Source of the DNA: Gekko japonicus
Lineage: Eukaryota
Direction of reading: 5' to 3'
NCBI RefSeq assembly: GCF_001447785.1
Contig: NW_015163639.1
Coordinates: 62,001 to 126,000 of the forward strand
Length of the DNA stretch: 64,000 nt
Position numbers and translations under genes: made by a program. This document shows, piece by piece, positions 5,813-58,784 of this stretch. Every line of letters begins with the position of its first letter. Positions within the stretch are counted from its first letter, which is position 1. Below the pieces are notes generated by a model. It was not told the DNA's origin, did no database searches, and saw only the letters and a list, made by a program, of their open reading frames with translations.

Positions 5813-6066
5813 AGGATCTAGGTGTTCAAATCCCTGCTGTGCCCAGAATCTTGCTGGGAGACCTCGGGCCAGTCGTCTCTGCCTAACCTACCTTACAGGG
5901 TTGTTGTGAGGTTAAAATGGGGGAAGGGAGAACAGCGTACGCTACCCTGAGCTTCTTGGAAGAAGGACACGATAAACGTGTGCTAGATTGTAGAGATATT
6001 GATATTGCCTTGCTCTTATTAAAATGAATTTTCTTTCTGGTACTAGAACGGTAGCCGGGAACGAAA

Positions 6067-6783
6067 ATGGAGGGGCAGAGTTTGGCCGGATCTCCAACAA
6101 GTGGACGCCTGGATTTGGGAGGAGGACTCCCTCACATTCTCCAACTAGAAACCGTGAGGGAGTTTCTGGCAGGGACAGCTCCACAACCCATCAAGAACGA
6201 ACCGGCTGAAGGGTTACGACAGCACGGGGAAGTCCAACGGCAGGGATTCCCAAAGACGACCCAGTTCCCACATGCGGGGTGGGGCAATCCGCAGCTGCCT
6301 CGGCCCTGGCCAGAAGAGGACTCCAAGGAGTTCCAGGCCTCCTTCATGGCAGTAGCTGGTGTCACCCAATGGCCTCGAGGGAAGTGCATGGCCCAAATTC
6401 CGCCAGAACTGAGTGAAGAGACCCGAGAGGCCTACGAGCCCTCAGCTTCTTCCGTCAAAGTAAAGGAAGAGATGCCGGAGGAGGTCCTGGTCGGCTTGGA
6501 GATGTGCCGCCAGCGTTTCAGGTGGTTCTGCTACCAGGAGGCCGAGGGACCCCGAGAGGCTTTCAGCCAACTCTGGGATCTCTGCCATCAATGGCTGGAG
6601 CCAGGGAGACACACCAAGGAGCGGATCCTGGAGCTGGTGATCCTGGAGCAGTTCTTGTTCATTCTGCCTCAGGAAATGCAGAGCTGGGTCAGGGAATGTA
6701 GCCCCGAGACCGGCAGCCAGGCGGTGGCCTTGGCGGAAGATTTTCTCCTCAGGCAAGGAGAGGCTGAAGGTGCTAGGCAAAAG
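6067..6783 (+). CDS. SCAN zinc-finger gene A, coding exon 1 (SCAN domain)
   Basis: SCAN motif [50 protein letters not shown]; acceptor TAG ends 6046; donor AAG|GTGAGA; 239 codons, phase 0. Confidence 0.93.
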
Positions 6784-7345
6784 GTGAGAGAACGCCATCC
6801 GATTTATCAATTTTTAAAGCCTTTGGCCTGTGACACGCTGTCCGTGCCTAGGATACAGGTCTTCAAAAGTGAGACTCTAAAGATCTGGAAGGAAGTTAAA
6901 ATTACCAAGAGCTTAGCCTGTGGGGCTGCTTATATGAGAGATCCCTGTCAGAGTGGGATCTTAATGTCAAAAGGACAGTGTGTGTGATACATTTGACAGA
7001 CATATTTACAAGTCCCTTATTCCCAAACAGTTACAGAATAACCAGCCTCATATTTTGTTCTTATTTCAATAAATCATCTTTTTTTAAACTTATCCCAGAA
7101 TTCAGCTCTATCTTTCCTCAGGACCACATAGATCCCTGAAAAGCCCAGACTCTGGGTCCCATTACCAGCAGCAAAGGAGAGAAGGTTTGGAATTCCAAAA
7201 ATTCCTGGTGGCAGCAGAAACTACCCCGCATAAAACACAAAGAGAAAATTTAAAGTGATAAACAGTCCTCCCCAAATAAGAGGACGCCACAGTCCTCCTT
7301 CCCAAATCTCTGACTGCTAAACACTGTCTGTATCTTCTGTTTCAG

Positions 7346-7460
7346 AGACAAGGACCCTTGGAATATATGGCTGTTAATTCCCCCAAGTCCGAGGACGATC
7401 CACCCGACTCCCTGAATATGCAGTTCTCTGTGGAGGCCAAACATGAGGCCAGCTTGCTGG
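7346..7460 (+). CDS. SCAN zinc-finger gene A, coding exon 2 (linker)
   Basis: TTCTGTTTCAG| and G|GTAAGG; open frame RQGPLEYMAVNSPKSEDDPPDSLNMQFSVEAKHEASLL, homologous to gene B exon 2; phase 0 to 1. Confidence 0.8.
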
Positions 7461-7816
7461 GTAAGGATCAGGGCCTCAAGTGACCTCTACTGACCTCTGT
7501 CTTTTGAAGAAGCATATATCACATGAACATGAAACTGCCTTCTGTTGAGGCAGACCATTGGTCCAATGAGGTCAGTATTGTCTACTCTGACTGGGAGAGG
7601 CTCTCCAAGGTCTCAGAGGTCTTTTCCATCAGCTCCTACCTGCTCTTTTGAACTGGAGAGGCTAGGGATTAAACATGGAACCTTATGCATGCCAAGCAGA
7701 TCATCTACGGCTGATCAACAATATGTATGCTAAATTTCATTTCTGGTAAGGAAGACTTTTAGTGTTGGCGTTTCAATTCTGGTCACGTTCCCAGTGTGAC
7801 ACAAAACCAGGGTGTG

Positions 7817-8396
7817 TGTATACTAGCTTGCCGGCTTCTGCTATCAGGTTACAGCATCTCTTGCTGCTCCTCAAAGATAACAAGGAGTCTCTGAAGTCCC
7901 GAGTCATTCAATCCAAGGTCAGGTTTTCCAGTAATCAATCAAGGCAATGTCAGCAGTTCAGGTCTAAGGTATGTATCGCATTCACGCCCAAAAGCATCTC
8001 TTGGGAGACTGTATAGCCACATGCCCAAATGTCACACAAACAGCCAGCTTCTAAGGACAGTCCTGTAAAGACTCATCTTCACTATCAATAGGCCACTGGT
8101 GTCAAGCCAAGAGGCGTGCACTTTGCCTTCTAGCCTGTAACTCTGTTCTCAGTGTTCTTCTGCAGCATTCCAAAGGTGTAGGTGATTCCAGAGGACTGGG
8201 AGTGGCTAACTGACCTTTAGCTGCTGAATTAGAGCTGGAGGGTGGAGATCATTCTAAACCAGCTTTTGGTTGCAAGTCCTGGCTTGCCTGCCCCTCATTT
8301 TCCAGCTGGTTGGCTTCTGTCAACTCTGGACTGGCTATGCAGGACCCCTCCTCTGAGGAGTCCTCACTGTCGCTGAGCTCTGGCTGACCCTTGACA
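7817..8396 (-). mobile_element. Solo LTR (Gypsy-like)
   Basis: TG...CA termini with 5-bp TSD GTGTG on both sides; strand is inferred. Confidence 0.65.
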
Positions 8397-9235
8397 GTGT
8401 GTATTTTACATGCAGATGGACACCAAATGTTCAAATGCCTGGCCTCTCCAGTTAAAGGATCTTCAGCAGCAGGTCTTGGGAAATCACTCTTGCTCTCTCT
8501 CTCTGTCTCACTCTGTTTCTCTCCCTGCCCGAACCCCTAAAAAGCTGCCGCCAGTTGCAGAAGACCAGTCTGAACTAGATGGGTGGAAGACCTGACATGG
8601 TATAAGGTAGTTTCCTATGATGGAACATCTGCTTTGCATACAGGTGGTCCAGGTTCAACAGGCATGGAGAAAACGCCCTGTCCCTTTAATAAGAGGCTTT
8701 GAGGGATGTTAATTACCAGCTGAAGTTATTTACCTTCGTGCCACAAAAAGCTGCAGCTGCCCATTTCCACACATTAAGCCTCTCCTTGCAGTCAAAATGG
8801 CTGCCAGTCACTCATCTTTCTTCATTCTTCAGTATGGAATATTGCCTCACAGCAGATTCCAGCGGAATCCTTCAGTGGGTGAGAAATTGCATCTATGAGA
8901 CAATGAATCTATATTGAATTTGATTTCACCCCTCCCATTACGACCCCCACTGTGTCTTTGTTCAACCGCACGTGGACTTCTAGTGGTACCTGGCCCCTGA
9001 TTCGCCCCTATGAGTGGAACAAGGGGGAGGGCCTTTCCCATCACGGCCCCAGAATGCTCCGACTGAGGAGACTAGTGCCCTGCAGGACTTGTCTGCATTC
9101 TGCGGGGCATCTAAGACAGAGTTATCCCACCAAGCATCCCTCGAATATAATTTTGGTAGACTCTTGCCAACAATGCTGTCAATTTTTATGCCAAAAGTTT
9201 ATGTGCCGAGTTTTAACGGGATTTCTATTGCCCCG

Positions 9236-9430
9236 ACCTCGATAGCCCGGGCTAGCCCGATATTGTCAGATCTCAGAAGCTAAACAGGGCCATCCCTGGT
9301 TGGTTATTTGGAAGGGAGACCACCAAGGAAAACCCAGGTCATGAAGTGGAGGCAGTCAATGGCAAACCATCTCTCAACGTCTGTTACTTTGAAAACCCTA
9401 TGGGGTCACCATAAGTCGTCGGTGACTTGG
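9236..9430 (+). mobile_element. 5S rRNA-derived SINE
   Basis: GCCCGATATTGTCAGATCTCAGAAGCTAA 5S-like head plus the 3' body shared with other copies. Confidence 0.7.
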
Positions 9431-9448
9431 TTTTATTATTGTTACAGT

Positions 9449-9848
9449 CGGGGGTCATTTCCTGCAGGAGCGCACAGGAGTGGAGCTCCGGCAGTAAAGA
9501 GTCCAGGGGGTGGGCACATGCAACAAGCCCCGCCCCCTGCTCCCAGGAGCCCTCAGTCAGAGCAAGAAGCAGCCAGGTAAGCTGCAGAGCCCCCCCCCTA
9601 GCCCCCCGGTCCAAAACAGTCCAGTGGCACCTCTAAGACCAGGTTTTATTCAGGTACAAGCTCTCCCTCCTCTGTGAGGACAGATCTGCACCCCCCCCCC
9701 AATAGCTAGCAATCCAAAACAGTCCAGTGGAGCCTGAGCGGTAGGTGTTGCCTTCTGACACACTTCCGGTGATGTCAGGGGGTGTGGCATATGCTAATGA
9801 GTTATGCTAATGAGCTCCTGCACCTCTTTTTCTACAAAATGACCCCTG
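9449..9848 (+). mobile_element. hAT MITE family D
   Basis: TIR C(A/G)GGGGTCATTT / AAATGACCCCTG; perfect 8-bp TSD GTTACAGT. Confidence 0.9.
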
Positions 9849-9998
9849 GTTACAGTACTGTTATCTGCCCCAAGCCCCATTTTGGGGGAGGGGCAGGATA
9901 AAAATCTGATAAACTAAATCAGTAAAACAAATGGGTCCTCTACCGTGCTGTCCCATAGAGTGTCATTCATATGGTGTTTCCTTTCCCACCCCCAACAG

Positions 9999-11330
9999 GC
10001 GAAGAGCAAGTCCAGCAGATTGAGGAAATGATAACAAGACCTGAGCAAGCAGACTTCAGTGCAGCAGCATCGGGGGGAGCAGAAGGGACATTTTTCCAGG
10101 ATCGTGAGGAAAAAGAGTTGCCTACAAGGCACGAGGGGCCAGAAAGTCAACAGGACACCTGAGCAAGCAGACTTCAGTGCAGCATCATTGGGGGGAGCAG
10201 AAGGGCCATTTTCCCAGGATCGTGAGGAAAAAGAGTTGCCCACAAGGCACGAGGGGCCAGAAAGTCAACAGGAAAACGATCCAGGGAAGGCAACAGATGT
10301 TTGCGCGGAACCCAACCTGGGCTTCGATGGACGTGCTTTCCAAGATGGAGTCTGCGGGCCTGAGGGACAAAAATTAGCTAGCTCTGCTAGTCAAAACTCC
10401 CCTCAGAGTTTTGACCTCACTGAGAACCAGGAAACACAGTTGGCAGAGAAAGGGTATCAGTGCACGTACCGTGGAAAAATCTCCAGTCAGAGACCACCCC
10501 TGCTAAGCATCCCCGAGGCAGTTCACACATCGTATGAATGCTCCGAGTGTGGGAAGAGCTTCAGCTGGAAGTCGCACCTTTTTAGGCACAAGCGAAGCCA
10601 CACGGGAGAGAAAGCTCATCAGTGCTCCGAGTGTGGGAAAGGGTTTATCTTCAAAACGGACCTTTTCAGGCACAAGAGGATCCACACAGGAGAGAAGCCA
10701 TACGAATGCTCGGAATGTGGGAAATGCTTTAGCCGCAAACCGAACCTCATTACGCATAGGAGAACACACACAGGAGAGAAACCACATCAGTGCGCTGAGT
10801 GTGGCAAATGCTTCAGTCGCAAGCCAACCCTTATTACTCACAAGAGAACCCACACGAGGGAGAAACCATACGAGTGCTCAGAATGTGGGAAAGGCTTTAT
10901 TTTTAAAATAGACCTCTTTAGGCACAAAAGAACCCACACAGGAGAGAAACCTTACGATTGCTCGGAGTGTGGGAAATGCTTCAGTCGGAAAGCCAATCTC
11001 ATTACACACAAAAGGACCCACACAGGTGAGAAACCCTACGAATGCTTGGAGTGTGGGAAAAAGTTCAGCCGAAAAGGAAACCTTATTACTCACACGAGGA
11101 CTCACACGGGAGAGAAACCATACGAATGCTCAGATTGTCGGAAAAGTTTCACTCAGCGAATACATTTCCTGAGACACGAATCGATCCATATGAGAGAGAG
11201 AAATGCGGAAGCTGTGGGGGATGCAGGGAGCGTGGGTTGGTGCTTACAAACGTCACGCAATTCACATGCGCAAAAGAGAAGCCAGAGAAAGCATGAAGGA
11301 AAGACTGTCCGGTTCTCCTTGGCTTTGTAG
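9999..11330 (+). CDS. SCAN zinc-finger gene A, last exon: 8 C2H2 fingers, frameshifted relative to upstream exons
   Basis: Phase-1 acceptor CCCCCAACAG|GC; spliced frame stops at TGA 10160-10162 because of a 118-bp duplication; finger frame (TGEKP-type linkers, 10533-11190) is open to TAG 11328-11330. Confidence 0.85.
10040..10273 (+). repeat. 118-bp tandem duplication inside the coding exon
   Basis: CTGAGCAAGCAGACTTCAG at 10041 and 10159; copies differ at about 5 positions. Confidence 0.95.
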
Positions 11331-19835: not shown

Positions 19836-19983
19836 AAATTAACTGTTGATTTTATGTGGAGAACATGTCACAGTCCTTCAGTTGCAAGACACGGTGTCAG
19901 TCTGTTAATTGAACAAACCTCATTCACTTATTGAATTCACCACCACCCCCTTTCTCATTCAAGGGCTGTAGCCAGCGATCAAA

Positions 19984-20709
19984 ATGGAGGAGCGGAACAT
20001 GGCAGAACCCAAAGCTGGGGAGAGATTGGCAGTGGGAGGCAGCGATCTTCACATTGTCCAAGTTGGGATGATGGGGGAGTTTCTGAGTGGGGTGACCGCA
20101 CCCCACATTAAACAAGAACCGGATGAGGGGCCACAGCAAAGCTGGGGAGTCCAGCGGGAGGCGTTCCTGAAGACGACGGAACAGACTCCACATTCAGGAT
20201 GGTCAGGCGCCCCCCTCCCTCAGCCCCTGTCAGAGAACAGGACAACAGAATTTTGGGGCTCTTCCAAGGGAGGAGGTGACGCCAACCGGTGGCCAGGAGG
20301 AGAAGGCCCAACTCAATCCAGGCCGAGCCTGAGTGATCAAGAGGACCACGAGGCCTACAAAAGCCTGGACTCTTCCGTGGAAGTGAAGGAAGAGATTCTG
20401 GACAAAGTGGACACTGCCAACTTGGAGCTACGCTGTCAGCGCTTCAGGCAGTTCAGCTACCAGGAGTCGGAGGGGCCTCGAAAGATATTCTGCCAGCTCT
20501 GGGAGCTTTGCCACCAGTGGCTGAAGCCGGAGAGGCATACAAAGGAGCAGATTCTGGAGCTGGTGATTCTGGAGCAGTTCCTGATGATCCTGCCTCTGGA
20601 CATGCAGTGCTGGGTCAGGGAACGGGGGCCCGAGACTTGTGTCCAGGCAGTGACCCTTGCGGAGGATTTCCTGTGGCGGTCACCAGAGGCCGACGGAACA
20701 GAGCACAAG
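19984..20709 (+). CDS. SCAN zinc-finger gene B, coding exon 1 (SCAN domain)
   Basis: [49 protein letters not shown]; donor AAG|GTAAGA; 242 codons, phase 0. Confidence 0.95.
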
Positions 20710-20749
20710 GTAAGAAAAGCTCACCCCAATCCTTCCTAGTAGACACCAG

Positions 20750-21005
20750 GGCAGTTTGGTGTAGTGTTTAAGACTGTGGGACTCTAATCTGGAGAACTGG
20801 GCTTGACTCTCCACGCGTCCACATGCAGCTGCTGGGTGACCCTGGGCCAGTCACAGTGCTCTCAGAGCTGTTCTCTCAAGGGCAGTTCTCGGGAGAGGTT
20901 TCTCAGCCCCACCTACCTCACAGGGTGTCTGTTGTGGGGAGAGGAAGGGAAGGAGATTGTAAGCCGAGTAAAGGGTGGGGTATAAATCCAACGCGTCTTT
21001 TTTTC
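20750..21005 (+). mobile_element. Squam3-like SINE
   Basis: Family match. Confidence 0.8.
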
Positions 21006-22271
21006 TCTGTTCAAAGTGGAGTTGAGGACTCTCCTGGAAAAGGAACATCCTTTGAAAAAAATAATTTTTCATGGCAAATTGTGTTAGTAAGGTATTGTTG
21101 CACTTCAGACAAGTGTAAAGGGGTACGAGATGCTCCCACACACGGTCAAGTAATGTATGGTTGTTGCTGACGCCATTTTATGATGTTTTTCTGGGGAGGA
21201 CATCCATAGCTTTTATTAGATTCTTTCAAAAAAATTTTTTAGTGATAATGTAATACGTTTAGAGCAGCTGAAATTCTCAATAAACTATCACAATCCTCTT
21301 TCACAGACCACATAGAGAGAGAGCTATTAAAAACCCCTCTAAAACAGTTACAAATTAATAATATCAAATTATAACTTCTAGATTTTTCTAATTGCCATTA
21401 TTTCTTTATTGGTATAGTACCCATCCACCCCCCTGCTAAACCCGGCAAACCAGTGTACTTTTGGAATTAAAGTGTAATTAAGCAGCCTTCAAAAAACTCT
21501 GTCCTCCACCACTGAAGATATTAATTTCAGAGTTGTTTATGGGCCAAGGAGGTTCTAAAATTTCAAAAATTGATGTCAAGTCCCTTTAAAAGGTGTCAAT
21601 GTCAAACCCTGGAAATTCTTCTTTTTCCGTAGATGTACAGGAGTTGGTATCTTTATTGTTAGTATCACTCATAGAGATGCTTCAGTCCTTGCTTTGTATA
21701 ATAAGAGACTCTGTGAGGACTTGTTAGCTTTAACATGAGACGTTTTGTAGCTTCATTAGATCCACAAAGGGGGTCCATGACCCAAAAAAGGTGAAGAAAC
21801 ATTGCTACACAAGTACCTCCAGTACAAGTAGCTACGTCTTTTGTCCTCTGCTATGAAAATAGGGGCCGAGATAGTATCCTGTGTATAATTTTCTTTGTTA
21901 ACCCTTAACTCCTTTTTTCCTGTCCGATGTGTGCTAGGATGGATGATATATGTTGAGGCGTGATTTTAGGTTAATTAATTAATTCAACCTTGTTTGTTCT
22001 GCTTCTGTAGGTCAGGTTGCCAACTCCTGGTTGGGAAATTCTTGGAGATTTGGAGGTGGAACCTGGGGAGGGCAGGGTTCGGGGAAGGGAAAGTCCTCAC
22101 CAGGGCACAATGCCATAGGGGCTGCCCCTCCAAAGCAGCCGTTTTCTCTGGGGGAACTGATCTCCGTAGCCTCAAAATCAGCTGTAATTCCGGGAGGTCT
22201 CCAGGCCCTGCCTGGAGGTTGGCAACGCTATCTGAATGGCTTGTGGGCTGTCATAAAGACTGACTGACTAC

Positions 22272-22645
22272 CAGGGCTCTTTTTGTAGAAATAGCATAAT
22301 AGGCCACACCCAACAGCAGAAACTCATTAGCATATTAGGCCACACCCATGACAATACAGCTGCATATTAGGCCACACACCCCATGTTACCGGAAGTGTGG
22401 TCATCAGCCACACCCACCTTTTGCTTGTTATTCTGTTTACCTTGTTTGTTGACAAAACCCAGGGCCTTTTTTTTGTAGCAGGGACTCCTTTGCATGTTAG
22501 GCCACACACCCCTAATGTAGCCAATCCGAATGAGTTTCTGCTGTTGGGTGTGGCCTGTTATGCTAATGAGTTCCTGCTGGGCGTGGCCAACTTGGGAGCC
22601 AGCCGGAACTCCATTCCTGTGTGTTCCTGCCCAAAAATAGCCCTG
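22272..22645 (-). mobile_element. hAT MITE family C (composite), inverted relative to 1828-2221
   Basis: TIRs CAGGGCT / AGCCCTG; perfect TSD CTGACTAC. Confidence 0.9.
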
Positions 22646-23395
22646 CTGACTACTCTGTGGGGAAGGAGTCTGTGTAACTAGGAGGGAATCTGCCGCAGAT
22701 GCCCTTCCGCCCTTTTGGTATTAGTATGTAGGCCAGTGGCTGAATCGGGGATTGTTTAGTAGGGAAAACTGGGCCAGTGTTATTGCCTTTGCTTTCAGGC
22801 CCTTCCCAACCCTTCTGCTTGTGCCATATTTGTTTGTTTAATTTATTTGTCCCCTGCCTCTCTTCCCCAAGGGGACCCAAAATGGCTGACCTGATTCTCC
22901 TCTCCTGTGAGTGACCCAAACACACACACACCACACACAAAAGTTACACGGTCCCATCATAAGCAACAGAAGTATAAATAAAGAATGATTTATAATAACA
23001 CTGATTCTGTCATTCCTCAAAATATAAATACCACACAAAGATTGCTCACGATCGCTCATAGGAAACATAAAGAGAAATTCCATCTGTAGCGTTATCTTTT
23101 CAGAACACCGGGAGTCCAGCATTCCATAAACTTATTTGAAATACTAGAAGAGTCCCCACCCCACCCCCATGTAGCAGAAAATATTAGTTTAGCAACCACA
23201 AGAAGGGGTAAGACAAATTCCGAATCTGACAAAAACGACAAGAGTTCTAATGTAACCCGATAATTTAACCTTTGGATCATGAGGTAAACTAATATTTAAC
23301 ATATCGTTAATGAAGTGGATTACAAAATCCCACAAACTCTATATTTTTTTGCACAGCTCCAAAAGAGATGAACAAAATCCCGATTTCTATTTCAG

Positions 23396-23498
23396 ATCTC
23401 AGAGGACGTGGACGGATTGGTAGCCGACTCTCCCAAATCGGAGCTGGACCCGTCGGACATTGTGAAGTTTGAGCTCTCGATGGAGAACTTGCAAGAGG
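23396..23498 (+). CDS. SCAN zinc-finger gene B, coding exon 2 (linker)
   Basis: TTTCTATTTCAG| and G|GTGAGG; ISEDVDGLVADSPKSELDPSDIVKFELSMENLQE; phases 0 to 1 join the flanking exons in frame. Confidence 0.8.
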
Positions 23499-23787
23499 GT
23501 GAGGATGAGGATGAGGAGGAGACATCAGGCTGACCTGAACTTCCTTAGTCCCTGGAACTTTCTGGGACCATTACAATGGAGGTCCTTTTCTGTCGTCTAA
23601 AATGGAGCCGAAAGCTGCTTTAAATCGAGTCAGATTAGTGGTCCAGCCAACTCGGCTTGGACTGGCAGCCGCTGCCTAGAGTCTCAACCTGAAAAGGTCT
23701 TTCTCGAAACCTTTCCCCTACCACCGCCCATGAGATCCTTTTTAGTGGAAAGGCTGGGGACTGAACCTGGAATTTTCTGTGTGCAAA

Positions 23788-24070
23788 TAGAAGAAGAAGA
23801 GATTGGATTTATACCCCGCCCTCCACTACCCAAGGGAGTCTCAGAGCGGCTTACAAACTCCTTTCCCTTCCCCTCCCCACAACAGACACCCTGTTAGTAG
23901 GTGGGGCTGAGAGAGCTCTGACAGAAACTGCCCTTTTTCAAGAACAGCTGTGCCAGAACTATGGCTTGCCCAAGGTCATCCAGCCAGGTGCAAGTGGAGG
24001 AGTGGGGAATCAAACCCGGTTCTCCCAGATTAGAGTCCGCGCACTTAACCACTACACCAAACTGGCTCTC
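23788..24070 (-). mobile_element. Squam3-like SINE
   Basis: Full length, (AAG)n on the + strand. Confidence 0.85.
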
Positions 24071-24249
24071 TTTAAATAGAATTCCAGTGGTGACTTACGA
24101 GGCAAGCACTGACCTCTGAACCCTTGAGTATGAAGCTGCTTTAGGTGGAGTCGGGCCTTTGATCTACCTGGCTTCTGCCTGCCCTGGCAATATCTCTCCT
24201 GGTCTTGCCAGCCTTTGGGAAATGCCAAGAAGTGAGCTTGGGAACAGGT

Positions 24250-24655
24250 TGGTGGCTCAGTGGCAGAGCATCTGTTCGGCACACAGAAGGTCCCAGGTTC
24301 AATCCCTGGCAGTTTAAAAGAATCAGATGGGAGGTGACGTGAAAGACCTGTATCTGAGACCATGGAGAGCAGCTACAGGTCAGATTAGACAATACCGACC
24401 TTGCCAGACCAGTGGTCTGAGCCAATATAGAACAGAGTCATGTATATACACATTATTTTGGGGGGAGGGGCCGTGGCTCAACGGTGGAGCGATTGATTTG
24501 CACACAGAAGGTCCCCAGTTCCATCTCCAGTTCAAACAATCGGATAGGAGGTGATGTGAAAGATCTCTCTGTACATGAAACTGCTGCCTGTCAGAGCAGG
24601 CAATACTGACCTCGGCAGGCCAGTGGTCTGACTCAGCATTAAGAATGGTTCATGT
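24250..24655 (+). mobile_element. Two tandem tRNA-derived SINEs with CR1-like 3' ends
   Basis: GGCTCAGTGGCAGAGCA...GGTTCAATCCC A/B boxes; 3' CCAGTGGTCTGACTCAG; related copies near 570, 3450, 7525, 8410. Confidence 0.65.
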
Positions 24656-24789
24656 AATAATAATAAATATTATTATCGTATGGCATTTTCTGTAGAATAG
24701 CCAGGAGATCCAAAGATAGTCTGGCGGCCAGAAGTCCTAGCTCTTTCAGCGTTTTGTACCACTAGGTGGCGGGCTAGACTTTTTTTTTT

Positions 24790-24952
24790 AAGGCAAGAGA
24801 CGTTTCGGAGGTGGTTTGTGCCATGGCCTGCCTCTGCGTCACAGCCCTGGTATTCCTTGGAGGTCCTCCCATCCAAGTACTAGCCAGGGCCGACCCTGCT
24901 TAGCTTCCGGGATCTGACGAGATCAGGCTAGTCTGGGCTATCCAGGTCAGGT
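24790..24952 (-). mobile_element. 5S rRNA-derived SINE
   Basis: Reverse complement GATCTCGTCAGATCCCGGAAGCTAAGCAGGGTCGG...TAGTACTTGGATGGGAG. Confidence 0.8.
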
Positions 24953-26173
24953 TCATGTGTGTACACGTGAGCCATGTACTGTGGCCCTTTGTTATCTTCC
25001 TTTCCCTGTCACTATTTTTATCCTGCCTTCCCTCCAAGTAGCTCAAGAAGCGGTATGTAGTTCTCCCCGTCTCCGTGTTTAATTACCACGACAACCTGTT
25101 GAGATAGGTTGGTCCGAGAGAGAGGGTGACTGGCCCAAGCTCCCCCAGCAAGCTCCCATGGCAGAGTGGGGATTTGAGTGTGGATCTCTGCCATCCTAAT
25201 CCAACTCTTTTAACCCCTGCAACTCATTGGCTTTCCAGCCCTATCAGGAATATCTTGATATTCTCCCATGGCTGGGGAAAGTAGTGCTATACCTTTGGAA
25301 ATCTGATGCCAGCTCACTGAAAGAAGGTTGAGATGAGGGTGGTAGTGGAGGGCTGGTTGCTCAGCGGCACCTTGCATACTTCAAGTGCATATGGACTCAG
25401 GGCTCTTTTTGTAGCAGGTACTCATTTGCATATTAAGCAACACACCCCTAATGTAGCCAATCCTCCAAGAGCTTACAGTAGCCCGTAGGCAGCATAGTGC
25501 CCGCCATCACCTTTCTTGGTGCCTGCCAAGTGATTTTAGAAAGCAGGTGGGAATTTTGCCCAGGAGGGCTTCTGATTGACTGTTGGAGATCTAGTTGGAT
25601 CTGGAGATTTTTAAAAAGTCGCTTCAGCGGCAGCAGCTGCTACCAGAGCACTAAGATCTTCACTGTATGGTGGAAGGTAAGCTGCATGTATGCTAGAAAA
25701 CATTTGTGATTGAGACGTTCATTTTAAAAGGCATCCTATTAAACAGCTCCTGTCTGAAATGTTGAAGAGTTAGCATTAGAGTTAGGCACATCCTCACTCC
25801 CTGACATTTTGTCATTGGCTCCGCCTCTTGTGGCAGCCATTTTGTGGCTGCGTACCAAGTGTCAGAGTTCCAGATGTGGCTCAAAAAAGCTGGGGGGTCC
25901 CCAGCTTAGGGTATTGGAGTGCCATCTGGGAGACCAAGGTTCAAATCTCCACTCGGCCATGGAAACTTGCTGTGTGACCTTGGGGAGGTCTAAAGATGAA
26001 GAAAATGGAAGGGGGCCAAATTTATGCAGAGTTTAACTTGAGGCAGGTGTGTAGAGTTCATAATTGTGTGTATCAGCTCATAAGTAAATAAGGATTGTTA
26101 TAAATGTTGCTTAGAGGAATCCTTTCCCTCTAGTGTGGGATATGATTTACATGGTGATTTTTGCTTGTTCCAG

Positions 26174-27414
26174 ACCAGCAACAATATTTTCTTGGCGAAG
26201 TGGGTGAACTGCAAGAGGGAACTTGTGGCACCGCAAGAAAAAAGGCTGCTTATGACAGTGGGAAAACCCTCCGTCCATCCTCTGACCACCTTTCCAAGAA
26301 TCAGAAGAAAGAGAAACCATATAAATGTTCGTACTGCGGGAAAATCTCAGATTGCAGGGCACATCTGATCATCCACGAGAGAACCCACACGGGGGAGAAG
26401 CCACATAAATGCTCTGTCTGTGGCAAGAGTTTCACTCGTAAAGAGTCTCTTATTATCCACGAGAGGTTTCACACAGGAGAGAAGCCCTATAAATGCTCAG
26501 TTTGCGGCAAAACCTTCAGCGATAAAATTGGCCGCCTCATACATGAAAGAACCCACACAGGAGAAAAACCGTACAAGTGCACTGAGTGTGGGAAAAGCTT
26601 TGGAACTCGCTGTAACCTTCTAAGGCATAGAAGGGTGCACACGGGAGAGAAACCATATAGATGCTCGGACTGTGGGCAGAGCTTCAGGTATAGGCCGCAA
26701 CTGGTGATACATGAAGGGACCCACAAGGGCGAGAAACCATATAAGTGCCCAGACTGTGGAGAGAGCTTCAATCAAAGTCGGCACCTCGTTATTCACAAGT
26801 GGACTCACACTGGAGAGAGACCACATAAATGCTCCATCTGTGGCAAAAGCTTCAATCAGAAATCGGACCTCATTACCCACACGAGAACCCACACAGGGGA
26901 GAAACCATATGTGTGCTCAGAGTGTGGGAAAAGCTTCATTTCGAGCTGCCAGCTCCGAAAGCACGAGAGGATCCACACGGGGGAGAAACCATACCAGTGT
27001 TCGGAGTGCGGCAAATGTTTCACGTACAGCTCTCACCTGACAACCCACAAAAGGACACACACAGGGGAGAAACCATACCAGTGTCCGGACTGTGGTAAGT
27101 GCTTCATTTCCAGCTCTCACTTCACTGCGCACAGAAGGACGCATACGGGAGAGAAGCCGTATCAGTGTTCGTACTGTGGAAACAGCTTCATCCAGAGATC
27201 CCAGCTCGCTAAACATGAGAGATCCCACACAGGCGAGAAACCGTATATATGTTCAGAGTGCGGGCAAAGCTTCCGGTGGAGTCAAGGGCTCAAGAAACAC
27301 ATGAGGACTCACACAGGAGAGAAGCCGTATAAATGCTCACAGTGTGAGAAAACGTTTACTAGTTCCTCTAATCTCTCTAGACATCAGAAAATCCATGCTA
27401 GGGAGAAACTGTAA
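26174..27414 (+). CDS. SCAN zinc-finger gene B, last exon: 13 C2H2 fingers
   Basis: Phase-1 acceptor TTGCTTGTTCCAG|AC; 13 CxxC...HxxxH units with TGEKP-type linkers; spliced CDS 2070 nt = 689 aa. Confidence 0.95.
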
Positions 27415-32349: not shown

Positions 32350-33080
32350 CCGCGCATGAACAAGCTCACCCGACCGAGCCCTCCCACCACCCCCTATAGA
32401 TCCATCTATAGGGGGTGGTGGCCCTCCCCGTCTTTTTGCAAACCCTGTTGAGGAATAGCAGTAAACAGCAAACACAAAAGCCTAGCATTCCATCGCCGCG
32501 TTATGATTGGCTCCCGCTCCTTCAAGCGAGCCAATCCAGCCCTCCCTTTGAAAGGAAGCCGTTCCGAGAGGAGCCTGGGCGGCGCTCACGACCGCCTACA
32601 GTTAAGCCATTCGCAGCAGCGACCCGAGTTCTCGTTGTAAGGCGCGTTTTCATTGGCCGCTTCGTTCTAAGGGGCGCTTCCTACTTCCCTCCCCCATGTA
32701 TTTCCTTTAGTGGATCGCAGCAGGATAAATCGGCGACCGAGCACAGAGGCGGGCTCTGCAATGTGGCGCGTAATCCGAATTTAGCGAGGCGGCGGAGACG
32801 CCGGGCTCGCTGCAGAAGGTGAGGCGCGCTGAGCATTGTCATGTCAGAACCGCGTCGGGCGGCGCGGTGGAGAAGCCCCCCCCCCCCTTCTGTTCTGTCC
32901 CAAACTCGTTCTGAGCCGGGCCGGGCTAAGAGCGAAGCGGGTCTCCTCCCATTGGCTGCTGTGGTTCCACTCACGGCTGTGACGTCGCCGAGCTGTTCGG
33001 AGCACGATGATGCCTTTCCTGACGCAGGAGGAGTAGCCTCTTCCCCCGCCCCCTTGCCAAGGCACGTGATCCGAACAGGG
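32350..33080 (+). promoter_or_regulatory. CENPA: CpG-island cell-cycle promoter and probable non-coding exon 1 of CENPA
   Basis: CCAAT boxes at 32506, 32531, 32652, 32951; CHR-type TTTGAA 32547-32552; E2F-like TCCCGC and TGGCGCG; donor AAG|GTGAGG at 32819; assignment to CENPA is inferred. Confidence 0.7.
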
Positions 33081-33459
33081 GCTTTTAATTGGGGAACGAA
33101 TATAGAGGGTTTTAAGGAAATATGCAATATGCTTCGATCTTTAAAATGCCACTTTAAAACTTTGCATGGAATCGGTTTTTTGTTAAATTCATGCACACAC
33201 TTGTGCATACAATATGTGTGTGTATGAATCAATACTTTTAAAAAATGTCAGTGGGATATTGTATATCATACAAATATTCGCATGCGTGTGTAAAATTTCC
33301 TGATGGGTAGCTGTGTTCGTCTGTTGTAGCAAAATAAAACAGGAGTCCAGAGGCAGTTTGTTGGGATATTGCAAATGTCACACTTCAGTCAAGAAAGAGT
33401 TAGCCTGTTTATGTAAGCTAACTCTTAGCTAGTTAGCTTAGGACCAGTTAGGTGTTAGG

Positions 33460-41040: not shown

Positions 41041-42038
41041 TATATAAACGGGCTACAGCTCTGCAGTCTGAAGGCATCAGAAGTGTGTGTTGTGATTGTT
41101 CATTCTATTGTTGTTGTAGTGCTATTACAACCACAGGACATACTGTTGTTACTTTGTTGTGGTTGATATATTTGTCCACTATTGGCCACAGGATGCTGGA
41201 CTAGATTGGTCAGTTCCAGCAGGGCTCCTTGCATGTTCTCCTGTATGGATGTGGCTTGACCCTCAGTCTTTCGATTCCCCCTTTATGACTGATTTGATAT
41301 GTCTGGTTATTTACCCGCATTTATTTCTTTTGCTGGGATTGTAAACATGTGTCTGTAAGATGGCTCTGTTTTAATTGCGTGTCTCCAAACATGAAGTCAT
41401 TGTACTCTGTTCGAAGTTTGTTTAAAAGTTGGTCTGGGAGTGGGATGGGGAAGACAGGGAACAGACCTTTTGGTAGGCAAGAAGTCCTATAACAGGGAAT
41501 CGCAATAATTATTCACTGGATTTACATCTTTCAGCCCTGCCTGCTCTTGTATATAAATATAGTTGGAAAATGATCTGAATTAGGAGTCGTTATTCTATTT
41601 ACTTTTTATACCTTATAGCCGCAGCAGTGTTATCAACACGTACCGATCCTTTCCCCCTTCTTCTCACCCATTCCTCCATTTTTATTGTATAAAGAGGCAC
41701 TTTGGGAACGCAGACCTATTATATAGGCCGGTTTTGATTGGTTTTAAGTAGTCACTCGTTGTGTAGAAACAATGTATTGGCCAAAAATATGAATATTTGG
41801 GGGGGGGGAGTGGTTAAAAGGGAGGGGCTGTCAGTGTGGAGGTATGTCTAGAGTGCCATGCTGGGGGAGGCCTGTGTTCATATCTCCACTTGGATGTGAG
41901 GCTTATGGGGCACCGTCTCAGCCTGTCGTACCTCACAGGATTGTTGTGACAGAGTCACATGTGCTGTCTGCACTCCTTTGAAGGAAGGGCAGGATAAAAA
42001 TGAAAGATAAATAAGGTTACTGTCTCCCCTTTGTTCTA

Positions 42039-42300
42039 CCAGTCTGGTGTAATGGTTAGGAGTGCGGACTCTAATCTGTTTGATTCCCCGCTCCTCCACA
42101 TGCAGCTGCTGGGTGACCTTGGGTAAGCCACAGTTCTTGCAGAGCTGTTCTCTCAAGAGCAGTTCTTTGAGAGCTCTCTCAGCCTCACCTACCTCACAGG
42201 GTGTCTGTTGTGGGGAGAGGAAAGGAAAGGAGATTGTAAGCCGCTCTGAGACTCCGAGTGAAGGGCGGGGTATAAGTTCCATCTCTTCTCTTCTTCTTCC
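42039..42300 (+). mobile_element. Squam3-like SINE abutting the CENPA ATG exon
   Basis: Head CCAGTCTGGTGTAATGG; (CTT)n tail runs directly into CCTAG-CCAG-ATACC-ATG. Confidence 0.9.
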
Positions 42301-42312
42301 TAGCCAGATACC

Positions 42313-42457
42313 ATGCGTCACTCACGAGCAGGCCCGAGCCCCAGGAGAGGTTCCACCACTTCGCCTCGACGCCGCGGACCAACATCTCCACGGCGAGGAC
42401 AACCACGGACATCTCCACGACAACGCCCCCGGGCGGCGCCTGCTGAAGGACGGCCAG
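42313..42457 (+). CDS. CENPA: CENP-A coding exon 1 (N-terminal tail)
   Basis: ACCATG start; MRHSRAGPSPRRGSTTSPRRRGPTSPRRGQPRTSPRQRPRAAPAEGRP; donor CAG|GTAAAC phase 1 matches the next exon. Confidence 0.85.
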
Positions 42458-43279
42458 GTAAACGCTACTGAATCCCAGCTTTGGAGGCCACGGCGAATTG
42501 ATGAGAAAGGAACCGGTGACCTTTCATCGACTCGCCTGCCTCTTCTTAACAGCCCCCGGCTTTATCTATCATATCGTTATCCTGCCCACCCTCTAAGGAA
42601 ACTCAGGGTGGTGTTGATGCTTTTCTCTCCCCCCCCCCCCCCCCCAGTCATTTTTTCCTCACAACAGCTCTTTGAGGTAGTTGAAAGGGTGTGTGTTACT
42701 GGCCACCCAGCAAGCTTCAGGGCTGAACAGGGATTTGAACCCGAGCCTCCCTGGCTAAAATCTTGTGTCAAGGGAAGTCTCCTAGAACAGCGGTGGGGTC
42801 AGAACTGGTACAACCCCGCAATAATTAGTTGATGTTGAACAAAAAGTTTGGGAATACGTACCCAGTAACATGGATAAAAGTGTTAGGGCTGTCCCTTAAA
42901 AAACACTTCAGGGTGGTGCTTGGGGAATTCGGATAATATGCCTGTGACTTTGATTAAAGAGACTCATGGTCGTAATTGGTCATCACAGAGGTTTCTCTGT
43001 CAGCATTTTTAGCTTCATCTGTCACAAACCAGGAGCGCAAACGATTGTCTTCTTGTCAGCAGGATGATTTGGCTTTGAAGCACACGCATGCCTTGGATCG
43101 TGGCCTAATGGATCCGAATGTTGAGTGGAGTCTGGGGCTAATTAGCAGCCCCTCTGTTTTTGTTGTGGCTCAGATAAACATTCCTCAAAAACACGGGCTC
43201 ATCTTGGGAGGCGCCAGGATTTACAGAGAGCGGACTTTCCCACTGCTCCTGGGGAGTAGCCTTCGATTGAAGCGTTGCT

Positions 43280-43907
43280 CCTTAAAAAGGATATTATAGC
43301 TTTGGAAAAAGTGCAGAAAAGGGCAACTCGAATGATAAAAGGGTTGGAACACTTTCCCTATGAAGAAAGGTTAAAAGCACTTGGGGCTCTTTAGCTTGGA
43401 GAAAAGACGACTGAGGGGTGACATGATCGAGGTTTATAAGATTATGCATGGGAAAGAGCAGGTAGAGAAAGAGGTACTTTTCTCCCTTTCTCACAATACA
43501 AGAACTCGTGGGCACTCCATGAAACTGCAGAGCGGTCGGGTTAGAACGGATAAAAGGAAGTACTTCTTCACCCAAAGAGTGATTAACACATGGAATTCAC
43601 TGCCACAGGAAGTGGTGGCGGCTACAAGCATGGACAGCTTCAAAAGGGAATTAGATAAGCATATGGAGCAGAGGTCCATCAGTGGCTATTAGCCACAAGG
43701 TATAGCTAGGGGCTCTGGGGCAAGTGATGCTCTGTCTTCTTGGTGCTTGGGGGGGGGGTCAACAGTGGGAGGGCTTCTAATGTCCTGGCCCCACTGCTGG
43801 ACCTCCTGATGGCACTGGTATTTCTGGCCACTGTGTGACACAGAGTGTTGGACTGGATGGGCCTTTGGCCTGATCCAACATTGGCGTCTCTTATGTTCTT
43901 ATGTTCT
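43280..43907 (+). mobile_element. CR1 LINE 3' fragment
   Basis: [21 protein letters not shown]; TTATGTTC tail. Confidence 0.9.
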
Positions 43908-44269
43908 TAAACCACTTCTAGCTCCGTAGGGCCTACTCAGCCTGTGATGGGCTTGATCACTGTTACAATGGAAGGTCTGTGTTTTCACCTTTCCTCCAAG
44001 GAGCGATGTACAAACTTCTGTGATTTTCCTCACAACAACCCTGTGAGGTGGGTGGGTGAGAGTGCGCGACTGTCCGAGGTCATCCCTCTGACCTTTCAGG
44101 CGGAGCAGGGATTTGAACCCAGCCATCCCATCCAAGTATCAAACCTGACTAGCTTCTGAACTCTGGTGAGATTGTACATTTAGGGCTGATCTCCCGAATA
44201 CATCAGGTGTTTCCAGTGACTCTTCGCCACTGGGTTTCTTCCCCTCAAAAATCCATTTTAGTCCACCTG

Positions 44270-44492
44270 GACCCGGATAGCCCAGACAAGCCCGATCTAG
44301 TCAGAGCTTGGAAGCTAAGCAGGGCCGACCCTGGCAAGTATTTGGATGGGAGACCTCTAAAGAGGACCAGGGCCGGGGAGACCAGAGGCAGACTATCAAG
44401 CCACTTCTCTGGACGTCCTCCATGCCCCAGTAGGAGTCGCCAGAGGTCGCCATGACTTCCAGGCATAGGCAGACACACACACACACACACAC
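44270..44492 (+). mobile_element. 5S rRNA-derived SINE with (CA)n tail
   Basis: GGAAGCTAAGCAGGGCCGACCCTGGCAAGTATTTGGATGGGAGACC. Confidence 0.75.
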
Positions 44493-44609
44493 AAAATACA
44501 AGAAATACCTCCCCCAATCCATTTCATTCCCATCCCTAGCTCTTGGGCTAGCCAGGCTTCCTTTCTTAGAACTCACGTTGCATGTTCTGGCAATCCTCTT
44601 CCCACACAG

Positions 44610-44713
44610 TGCGGCGGCGAAGATACCGGCCCGGCCAGCGGGCCATGCTAGAGATCCGGAAGTACCAGAAGAGCACCAACCTGCTCATCCAGAAGCTGCC
44701 CTTTGCCCGTGTG
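44610..44713 (+). CDS. CENPA: CENP-A coding exon 2
   Basis: CAG|TG and GTG|GTGAGT; [35 protein letters not shown] (alphaN and alpha1 of the H3 fold). Confidence 0.96.
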
Positions 44714-50221: not shown

Positions 50222-50299
50222 GTGCGTGAGATCTGTCTGGACTACACTCGAGGAGTTGACATGCAGTGGCAGGCGATGGCTTTGCTTGCCTTGCAGGAG
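50222..50299 (+). CDS. CENPA: CENP-A coding exon 3 (loop 1, CATD)
   Basis: TTTCCCAG| and GAG|GTAAGC; VREICLDYTRGVDMQWQAMALLALQE with the RG loop and the CENP-A-type Trp. Confidence 0.96.
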
Positions 50300-53675: not shown

Positions 53676-53810
53676 GCTGCTGAAGCATTTCTTGTACACC
53701 TGATGGAGGATGCCTACATCTGTGCCATTCACGCCAAACGGGTCACCCTCTACCCCAAGGATATACAGCTGGCTCGGCGGATTCGTGGCATTCAGGAAGG
53801 ATTGGGTTAG
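53676..53810 (+). CDS. CENPA: CENP-A coding exon 4
   Basis: TTTCATAG|; [44 protein letters not shown]-stop; C-tail resembles human LEEGLG; total CDS 462 nt = 153 aa. Confidence 0.97.
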
Positions 53811-54572: not shown

Positions 54573-54578
54573 AATAAA
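54573..54578 (+). terminator. CENPA: Probable CENPA polyadenylation signal
   Basis: AATAAA with T-rich upstream and GT-rich downstream sequence, about 760 bp after the stop. Confidence 0.6.
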
Positions 54579-57829: not shown

Positions 57830-58028
57830 ACTGGCGTCAAGGAGACATGGCAATATTTTAAAATGACAAACTTGTCACTGGGTCAAGGATGGTTTTAAAT
57901 ATGGGAGGAGGGAGGCTTGTTTATGGAGGGCAACTCTCGGCTGATGCAGAGGTTACTCCCCCCCCCATGATTGTTCCTGGATTTATATATCTGCAGAGCC
58001 CCCCGCCCCACCTTGGGCCTCCTTAGCG
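57830..58028 (+). promoter_or_regulatory. CYP21A2: CYP21 proximal promoter
   Basis: TATATA 57984-57989; NR5A1/SF-1-like TCAAGG cores near 57837 and 57883; CRE half site CGTCA. Confidence 0.55.
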
Positions 58029-58254
58029 ATGTTCAGCGCTGCTCTTTTCCTCCTGGTGTTCCTGGCAGTGGCCCTGTTCGGCCGGCGGCACACCAGGCTT
58101 CTCCGGCCGAAGGGGTGTGGGGACCTGCCTGGCCCTTGGGCCCTGCCCCTCATTGGAAACCTCTCCCACCTGTTCCACCCCGACCTTCCTATCCACTTCC
58201 TCAAGTTAACCAAACGGTATGGACCCATCTACCGCCTTCGCTTCGGCAACAAAG
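58029..58254 (+). CDS. CYP21A2: Steroid 21-hydroxylase (cytochrome P450 21), exon 1; gene continues beyond the window
   Basis: Membrane anchor, Pro-rich hinge, HLFHPDLPIHFLKLTKRYGPIYRLRFG (human [27 protein letters not shown]); donor AAG|GTGAGC phase 1; adjacent to CENPA as in the chicken MHC. Confidence 0.9.
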
Positions 58255-58784
58255 GTGAGCTGGGGGGGGGTCCTTGTGGCCAGGAATGAATCTCTTTTGT
58301 CCTTAGCCTCCAAAGAGCTCGGGGTGGCTTACTTGGGTCTCTCCCCTTTTATCCTTACAACAGCCCCGTGGGGCGGGCTAGGCTGCGAGAGAGTGGGAAG
58401 GTCAGCCATTGAGGCGTGTGCCCCCCCAGTTCTAATCTAGCCCTTTAAGCCCTCCCCACCGCACACAACATTTTGTTTGTGGGGGGGGGGTTTGCTTACG
58501 GTGGATCTCTGGCCTGGTTCAGCTACAAAATGGCTGTGGCAGGAGGTGGAGCCAAGTACCAAATGGCTGCCACTATAACCAGAGCAGGGGACGAAGGGGG
58601 TACAAAGCTGATGTGGTAGAAACAGAACTGATCAATGTTGTCTGGAGAACACTTGTGATTCTGGGAGTTCTCCAGGCCCCATCTGGATGTTGACAACCCT
58701 AGCAGCAGCCGGAGGTCTCTGGCCGGAGACCTTCCTGCCATGCCGCCTGAAATCTTTTAAACTAAAGGCCTAGGACCAAAACAA

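What the first reader, a model, noticed from the sequence alone, without database searches (positions are those of the whole stretch)
42313..42457. CENP-A N-tail built from periodic S-P-R-R repeats
Seen: SPRR at residues 9, 17 and 25 and SPRQR at 34 (spacing 8, 8, 9), with a DNA-level repeat (ACATCTCCACG at 42382 and 42409) indicating expansion; no Lys in the tail and no mammalian-type N-terminal GPR. Known: SPKK/SPRR motifs bind the minor groove of AT-rich DNA in sea-urchin sperm histones, S-P-x-R is the full CDK consensus, and similar oligopeptide expansions occur in Drosophila Cid tails. Inference: a phospho-switchable linker-DNA-binding tail that evolved convergently in a squamate centromeric histone, relevant to centromere drive or retention in sperm.
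Basis: partly seen in the sequence, partly recalled or inferred. Interest (0 to 1): 0.7.

Follow-up and report, generated by a model that had tools for sequence, protein, structure and literature searches.

The report
Gecko centromere histone with SPRR-rich tail
This is the gecko's centromere histone gene (CENP-A); its tail carries three SPRR motifs in a layout shared with other geckos, which likely grip neighbouring DNA until phosphorylation releases them, an idea already proposed for fly, mouse and human versions of this protein.

Summary
The exon encodes the N-tail of a CENP-A that is letter-identical to the NCBI-predicted Gekko japonicus protein. RNA reads confirm the 42457-44610 junction (26 reads, one run) and show a non-coding first exon ending at 32818. 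Two corrections: only three of the four sites fit the SPKK/CDK consensus, and the 11-nt DNA repeat is borderline given the protein (P about 0.05). The motifs are not a recent expansion. All 6 gecko tails carry three to five strict motifs, and two of the four sites align across lizards, snakes and tuatara. S/T-P-basic motifs also occur in birds, mammals, sturgeons and sharks. Minor-groove motifs in CENP-A tails were proposed in 2002. The likely mechanism is a basic, unstructured tail that binds linker DNA and is tuned by proline-directed phosphorylation; this is untested. Nothing found points to sperm or to centromere drive. The fresher lead lies in relatives: 7 of 29 squamate tails, against 0 of 47 from other amniotes, have exact tandem expansions, and two of these are in extra CENP-A gene models.

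The parts
32400..33100 (+). CpG island and likely promoter (CCAAT boxes at 32506, 32531, 32652; CHR-like TTTGAA at 32547)
   Evidence: CpG observed/expected 0.95 against 0.36 for the window; motif positions; reading them as NF-Y/CHR elements is recalled knowledge, not tested
32787..32818 (+). 3' part of a non-coding first exon (true start not determined); GT donor at 32819
   Evidence: 29 reads of X21 carry these letters in front of the ATG exon; single window match; the ATG at 32696 is in frame but stops after 4 codons, those at 32503 and 32761 are out of frame
42038..42300 (+). SINE-like repeat whose TC-rich tail forms the pyrimidine tract of the acceptor of the ATG exon
   Evidence: 77-87% identical to 11 other long copies in the window; matches end at 42255-42301; acceptor AG at 42302-42303
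42304..42457 (+). CENP-A exon with 9 nt of 5' UTR, ATG at 42313 and tail residues 1-48
   Evidence: one match in the genome
42337..42348 (+). site 1, S9-P-R-R; aligns with SSRR in most squamates
42361..42372 (+). site 2, S17-P-R-R; shared by geckos, aligns with TP(P)(S)RR of other squamates
42385..42396 (+). site 3, S25-P-R-R; SPRR in 14 of 22 lepidosaur rows
42412..42426 (+). site 4, S34-P-R-Q-R; SPRR in 11 of 22 lepidosaur rows including tuatara; a read variant at 42422 (Q37R) gives SPRR
42382..42419 (+). two copies of an 11-nt word (42382-42392, 42409-42419), 27 nt apart
   Evidence: P 0.044-0.057 under synonymous recoding
44610..44713 (+). coding exon 2: end of tail, alpha-N helix, start of alpha-1
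50222..50299 (+). coding exon 3: loop 1 (two residues longer than in H3) and start of alpha-2
53676..53810 (+). coding exon 4 to the stop codon; AATAAA follows at 54573 and 54969

Best explanation
This exon encodes the N-terminal tail of a spliced gecko CENP-A gene, and its SPRR motifs, laid out as in other geckos, likely bind linker or neighbouring-nucleosome DNA until proline-directed phosphorylation (likely by CDK) weakens that grip. Shown: gene structure, splicing, CENP-A features, motif enrichment, a 53-residue tail with 18 Arg and one acidic residue, and the same layout in other geckos. Inferred from alignment: sites 3 and 4 go back to the lepidosaur ancestor, site 2 was sharpened to SPRR in geckos, and site 1 arose by one S-to-P change, so the periodicity is old and not a recent duplication. 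Inferred from known SPKK and human CENP-A biochemistry: DNA binding, phosphorylation, and a modulating effect on compaction or loading of centromeric chromatin. My odds: gene identity 0.99; inherited layout 0.85; some sites CDK-phosphorylated in vivo 0.7; phospho-dependent DNA binding that matters in cells 0.5.
For: The four GT-AG exons give a protein identical to P0004. The best solved-structure matches are CENP-A chains and H3/CENP-A chimeras. Loop 1 and the diagnostic residues match human CENP-A. The junction is in RNA reads. No second CENP-A turned up in the genome. In the model, residues 1-50 have no secondary structure and block pLDDT 43-49 (weak model, mean 60). 6 of 6 geckos have at least 3 strict motifs, with spacings 8,8,9 in Gekko, Paroedura and Sphaerodactylus. 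At least one strict motif occurs in 18 of 24 other squamates, 14 of 17 tuatara/crocodile/turtle/bird tails, 18 of 30 mammals and 8 of 14 frogs and fishes; sturgeons, paddlefish and sharks have 5-7 [ST]P-x-[RK] sites. SP(K/R)(K/R) binds AT-rich minor grooves and phosphorylation blocks it (PMC9903204, passages). Human S16/S18 are phosphorylated and alter CENP-A chromatin compaction in vitro (PMC5343448, passages); S18 is a cyclin E1/CDK2 substrate (PMC7397030, passages).
Against: No binding or phosphorylation data exist here for any reptile CENP-A. 6 of 24 non-gecko squamate tails, and the human tail, have no strict motif, so the motif is dispensable elsewhere. Tail alignments are of low-complexity sequence and site homology can shift. 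The 11-nt identity between units 3 and 4 (P about 0.05) could reflect an old duplication or local conversion. In human cells the two CENP-A tails are largely redundant (PMC6329807, passages). Few frogs and fishes were sampled and no salamander or lungfish could be named, so the state of the vertebrate ancestor is not fixed.
Confidence: 0.6

Rival explanations
1. The sites are CDK-read switches for protein partners, loading or turnover of CENP-A (as for human S18), and DNA binding is incidental.
For: Hyperphosphorylation of human S18 by cyclin E1/CDK2 lowers centromeric CENP-A (PMC7397030, passages). The human N-tail acts through CENP-B and CENP-T (PMC6329807, passages). The looser [ST]P-x-[RK] class is more widespread than the strict one: at least one in 77 of 91 tails, against 64 of 91.
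Against: All three gecko sites are the doubly basic SPKK type, more than a kinase needs, and regularly spaced. The tail is 34% Arg with one acidic residue.
Confidence: 0.2
2. Only the overall basic, Pro-rich make-up of the tail is selected; SPRR words and their repeats arise by drift and slippage in a GC-rich exon.
For: The exon region is 63% GC with CpG ratio 0.98. The expanded unit differs between lineages and is not always SPKK-like (Lacerta, Phrynocephalus). Two of the 7 expansions lie in extra copies whose histone folds diverge faster. SPKK motifs are said to evolve easily (PMC9903204, passages).
Against: Enrichment over composition in all 5 geckos shuffled (p at most 0.001 each), with spacing kept across gecko families. 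Related species are not independent samples, however.
Confidence: 0.12
3. One reading: a convergent, recently expanded sperm-histone-like tail serving centromere drive or retention of CENP-A in sperm.
For: Geckos have the highest strict motif count in the sample (mean 3.7 against 0.8-1.4). Squamate tails do expand by tandem repeats (7 of 29). Read variants in this exon include two amino-acid changes inside the motif units.
Against: No exact internal repeat longer than 5 residues in this tail, and a borderline DNA repeat. Motifs are shared with outgroups. No second, germline-type copy was found in this genome. No tissue information for the RNA runs. No selection test was possible. Rodent and primate CENP-A, rat tail duplication included, was under negative selection (PMC549713, section 5).
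Confidence: 0.08

Closest known systems
Vertebrate CENP-A (human, galliform birds)
   Same: Histone fold with two extra loop-1 residues, the same diagnostic substitutions, a GLG end as in human, four coding exons (four exons also in rat and chimpanzee, PMC549713 section 5), Arg-rich Lys-poor tail with S/T-P sites (PMC6329807 passages).
   Different: Tail of 53 residues against a median of 37-38 in birds and placental mammals; 3 strict SPRR against 0 in human and a mean of 0.8 in mammals; no X-P-K/R start for NRMT1; keeps the H3-like RYRPG that human lacks.
SPKK-type minor-groove motifs in CenH3 tails of Drosophila, mouse and human (Malik, Vermaak and Henikoff 2002)
   Same: Repeated minor-groove-type motifs in a centromeric histone tail, with lineage-specific gain. 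Known to me only through passages of PMC12321929 and PMC549713; the paper itself was not held.
   Different: Positive selection is reported for Drosophila tails and is untested here; the gecko layout is stable across families and not recently expanded.
Sperm-specific SPKK H2B and H1 of sea urchins and hydrozoans
   Same: SP(K/R)(K/R) motifs repeated in an extended histone N-tail (PMC9903204, passages).
   Different: Those are sperm-restricted bulk H2B variants with five to seven motifs (Hydractinia); this is an H3 variant with three, the only CENP-A found in the genome, and with no shown sperm specificity.
Rat CENP-A with a 25-residue tail duplication
   Same: Precedent for tandem duplication inside a vertebrate CENP-A tail (PMC549713, section 5).
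   Different: The window's gene shows no such duplication; other squamates do.

Membership tests
CENP-A / CenH3 | H3-type histone fold | tested here: met
   Pfam Histone E 2e-42; best PDB matches are CENP-A chains and chimeras; four helices predicted
CENP-A / CenH3 | Loop 1 longer than in H3 | tested here: met
   two extra residues against the genome's own H3, RG as in human CENP-A (PMC6379705 passages)
CENP-A / CenH3 | H3 Gln68, Phe84 and Thr107 replaced (criteria recalled from memory) | tested here: met
   Ala, Trp and Ala at the aligned places
CENP-A / CenH3 | N-tail unrelated to the H3 tail | tested here: met
CENP-A / CenH3 | Localises to centromeres | not testable with these tools
   inferred from orthology only
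SPKK-motif DNA-binding tails | Repeated S/T-P-(K/R)-(K/R) | tested here: met
   3 copies, 0.21 expected; the fourth site fails in the reference sequence
SPKK-motif DNA-binding tails | Binds the minor groove of AT-rich DNA | not testable with these tools
   needs a binding assay
SPKK-motif DNA-binding tails | Binding blocked by Ser phosphorylation | not testable with these tools
   needs kinase and binding assays
Sperm-specific SPKK histones (spH2B, spH1) | H2B or H1 backbone | tested here: not met
   the backbone is CENP-A
Sperm-specific SPKK histones (spH2B, spH1) | Expression restricted to the male germ line | tested here: inconclusive
   exon depth about 32 in X21 against 1-2 in X20 and X22, tissues not given
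Tandemly expanded CenH3 tails | Near-exact internal repeat of 8 or more residues, or a matching DNA tandem repeat | tested here: not met
   longest exact repeat 5 residues; DNA repeat P about 0.05; no TRF array. Met by 7 of 29 squamate tails, not by this one
Adaptively evolving CenH3 tails (centromere drive) | dN/dS above 1 or excess fixed amino-acid changes | not testable with these tools
   no coding DNA of related species could be fetched
NRMT1 substrates (alpha-N-methylated CENP-A) | X-Pro-Lys/Arg after Met removal | tested here: not met
   starts M-R-H-S; motif from PMC5343448 passages

The most novel reading that the evidence does not exclude
Squamate CENP-A tails are a vertebrate hot spot of repeated, independent S/T-P-basic gain: point changes in geckos, tandem expansions in at least five lineages (Heteronotia, lacertids, Anolis, Phrynocephalus, Vipera), and extra CENP-A genes with expanded tails in an agamid and a viper. 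They would form a phospho-tunable DNA-binding rheostat that tracks centromeric satellites or serves the germ line, as Cid tails and paralogs do in Drosophila.
Probability: 0.2. Interest if true: 0.65.

Novelty: new member of a known kind. Interest (0 to 1): 0.3.

Why it matters
For this locus alone it matters little. It is an annotated CENP-A whose tail shows an idea proposed in 2002 in unusually clean form. It would be a neat test substrate, because three identical, evenly spaced SPRR sites make phospho-dependent DNA binding by a vertebrate CENP-A tail easy to assay. The comparison across squamates could matter more. If their tails really gain these motifs repeatedly, and some species keep extra CENP-A genes with longer tails, reptiles would give a vertebrate system for testing whether centromeric histone tails track centromere DNA, where early rodent and primate comparisons found only negative selection.

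Tried and rejected
Recent tandem expansion in this gene: rejected. A longer N-terminus from the upstream exon: rejected, the in-frame ATG stops after 4 codons. A second CENP-A in the genome: none seen. The exon-4 search gave 17 matches, 1 self; 9 of the 16 others were fetched and all are H3; 7 were not fetched and have H3-like scores; counts are lower bounds. SRPK as the kinase: disfavoured, the tail has one SR dipeptide, and the SRPK preference for RS repeats is recalled, not tested. Run search: no holder on record as RNA was listed among the indexed runs; three raw RNA runs were added by species label. Only the region up to 43900 was laid, so the later junctions are not read-checked; they rest on GT-AG ends and identity to P0004. 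The tree of histone folds is poorly resolved (4 of 32 branches well supported), so I used only end-branch lengths. The structure model is weak (mean pLDDT 60) and no fold search was run on it. Malik 2002, Suzuki 1989 and Churchill and Suzuki 1989 were not held. Earlier scan notes: none found. dN/dS and satellite AT content could not be computed. No complex prediction was run. No supplementary files were read.

Full report
What is there. The stretch 42313-42457 is the first coding exon of a CENP-A gene on the + strand. Coding exons lie at 42313-42457, 44610-44713, 50222-50299 and 53676-53810, all with GT-AG ends. Together they give a 153-residue protein that matches P0004 letter for letter; NCBI names P0004 the predicted CENP-A of Gekko japonicus. 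It has two extra loop-1 residues and the CENP-A substitutions when aligned with human CENP-A and the genome's own H3, and its best solved relatives are CENP-A chains. Genome searches found one copy of the tail exon and no second CENP-A among the exon-4 matches inspected (9 of 16 non-self matches, all H3).

Splicing. It is listed for one of the four runs laid; X20 and X22 cover the exon only 1-2 deep and the table is truncated. In the same run 29 reads enter the exon from a sequence that maps once, at 32787-32818, before a GT donor inside a CpG island. This first exon adds no protein. A SINE-like repeat ends just before the acceptor of the ATG exon and supplies its pyrimidine tract.

The observation. 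SPRR at 9, 17 and 25, SPRQR at 34, no Lys before residue 66, no GPR start and the 11-nt word at 42382 and 42409 are all as described. The three strict motifs exceed chance: 0.21 expected from composition, and P 0.024 even when SP and RR pairs are kept. The fourth site has Gln at +3 and fits neither consensus. The DNA repeat is weak evidence: 4.4-5.7% of 3000 synonymous recodings reach 11 nt; only units 3 and 4 share third positions; unit 1 uses the AGC Ser codon where the others use TCN.

Relatives. I hand-picked 91 full-length named tails (92, which had two invertebrates and lacked Eublepharis). I dropped partial, fused, mis-started and chimeric records and most same-species duplicates. One search listed only the best 120 of 299 hits, so mammals are a subsample without mouse or rat. 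Tails with at least one and at least three strict [ST]P[RK][RK] motifs: geckos 6 and 6 of 6; other squamates 18 and 4 of 24; tuatara, crocodile, turtles and birds 14 and 1 of 17; mammals 18 and 0 of 30; frogs, ray-finned fishes and sharks 8 and 0 of 14. With the looser CDK consensus, sturgeons, paddlefish and sharks reach 5-7 sites, more than this gecko. Geckos are thus the most SPRR-rich group sampled, but the motif class is vertebrate-wide. Lys is absent from 25 of 30 squamate tails, and the MGP(R/K) start is confined to mammals (27 of 30).

Origin of the four sites. In an alignment with 22 lepidosaur rows, site 1 is SPRR in 4 rows and SSRR in 13; Eublepharis also has SSRR. Site 2 is SPRR in the 5 geckos and aligns with TP(P)(S)RR in the others. 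Site 3 is SPRR in 14 of 22. Site 4 is SPRR in 11 of 22, including tuatara. Spacings of 8, 8, 9 recur in Paroedura and Sphaerodactylus. The simplest reading (inference; low-complexity alignments can slip) is an old layout sharpened by point changes, not a recent expansion.

Where expansions are real. Exact internal repeats of 8 or more residues occur in 7 of 29 squamate tails (Heteronotia, two Podarcis, Lacerta, Phrynocephalus, one Anolis, one Vipera), in 0 of 47 other amniote tails and in 2 of 16 anamniote tails; this gecko is not among them. The units differ between lineages, so at least five events are implied. The sequences are not independent, they are gene predictions, and rat is a known mammalian counter-example outside my sample (PMC549713, section 5). 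Two of the seven lie in extra gene models. Phrynocephalus has two CENP-A models on different contigs, Vipera latastei four accessions on one chromosome, and Crotalus tigris two. The extra copies have longer histone-fold branches (0.05-0.14 against 0-0.01 changes per column), and one Vipera copy has changes at conserved positions, so decay is as likely as specialisation.

How it likely works. The 53-residue tail has 18 Arg and one acidic residue and no predicted structure (weak model). SP(K/R)(K/R) repeats bind AT-rich minor grooves and lose binding when the Ser is phosphorylated (PMC9903204, passages). Human CENP-A is phosphorylated at S16/S18 with effects on chromatin compaction and segregation (PMC5343448 and PMC6379705, passages); S18 is a cyclin E1/CDK2 site (PMC7397030, passages). 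I therefore favour a tail that binds linker or neighbouring DNA and is loosened by proline-directed phosphorylation (overall 0.6). Rivals: protein-docking or loading switches (0.2), neutral low-complexity drift (0.12), and a recent sperm- or drive-related expansion (0.08). None of the functional steps was tested here.

What is known. [quoted passage not shown] I could not read the 2002 paper. High variability of CENP-A tails is general (bioRxiv 10.64898/2026.09.17.752431, passages). Six searches of the held library (listings only, and searches listed part of their hits) showed no paper on squamate CENP-A tails or duplicates. The library lacks most subscription journals, and I read no supplements.

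Verdict. It is a new member of a known kind, interest 0.3. The bolder reading, squamates as a hot spot of tail-motif gain and CENP-A duplication, has probability about 0.2 and would deserve about 0.65.

Noticed in passing
window 32787-32818: Non-coding first exon spliced to 42304, 9.5 kb upstream, in a CpG island with CCAAT boxes and a CHR-like TTTGAA. Two RefSeq accessions with the same protein suggest that UTR variants are already annotated.
   Followed up: yes
window 42038-42303: A SINE-like copy ends 1-3 nt before the acceptor AG of the ATG exon; its TC-rich tail is the pyrimidine tract in use. A second pyrimidine tract with CAG lies at its 5' edge (about 42020-42042), perhaps part of the tract before insertion. 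Not compared with other geckos.
   Followed up: partly
window 42382, 42402, 42422: A>G read variants (T24A, synonymous, Q37R) in 16 of 48, 12 of 47 and 8 of 47 reads of X21, and together on one contig of X1 that has 5 differences in 156 nt. Q37R makes a fourth SPRR and T24A breaks the 11-nt repeat. A second haplotype is likely; RNA editing is not excluded, since all three are A>G and 20 nt apart.
   Followed up: partly
window 6055-11330 and 19972-27414: Two SCAN plus C2H2 zinc-finger genes upstream on the same strand. A Crotalus adamanteus prediction named zinc finger protein is fused to CENP-A, and Phrynosoma and Phrynocephalus predictions carry similar foreign N-termini, which suggests a conserved squamate neighbourhood.
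   Followed up: partly
P0060 and P0011; P0051, P0059, P0305, P0065; P0034 and P0303: Extra CENP-A gene models in Phrynocephalus forsythii, Vipera latastei and Crotalus tigris. The extra copies diverge faster in the histone fold, and two have tandemly expanded tails. One literature search found no report.
   Followed up: partly
P0024 and P0036; P0006 and P0008: Tail length differs by one repeat unit between two Anolis sagrei records (8 residues) and between two Podarcis species (9 residues).
   Followed up: partly
P0143, P0275, P0296, P0298-P0300, P0153: Shark, sturgeon and paddlefish CENP-A tails carry 5-7 [ST]P-x-[RK] sites, and a sea anemone tail carries 4 in a tight cluster.
   Followed up: partly
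window 57945-58286: Weak Pfam p450 match (E 0.009, below the cut-off) in a short frame; possibly an exon of a downstream cytochrome P450 gene.
   Followed up: no
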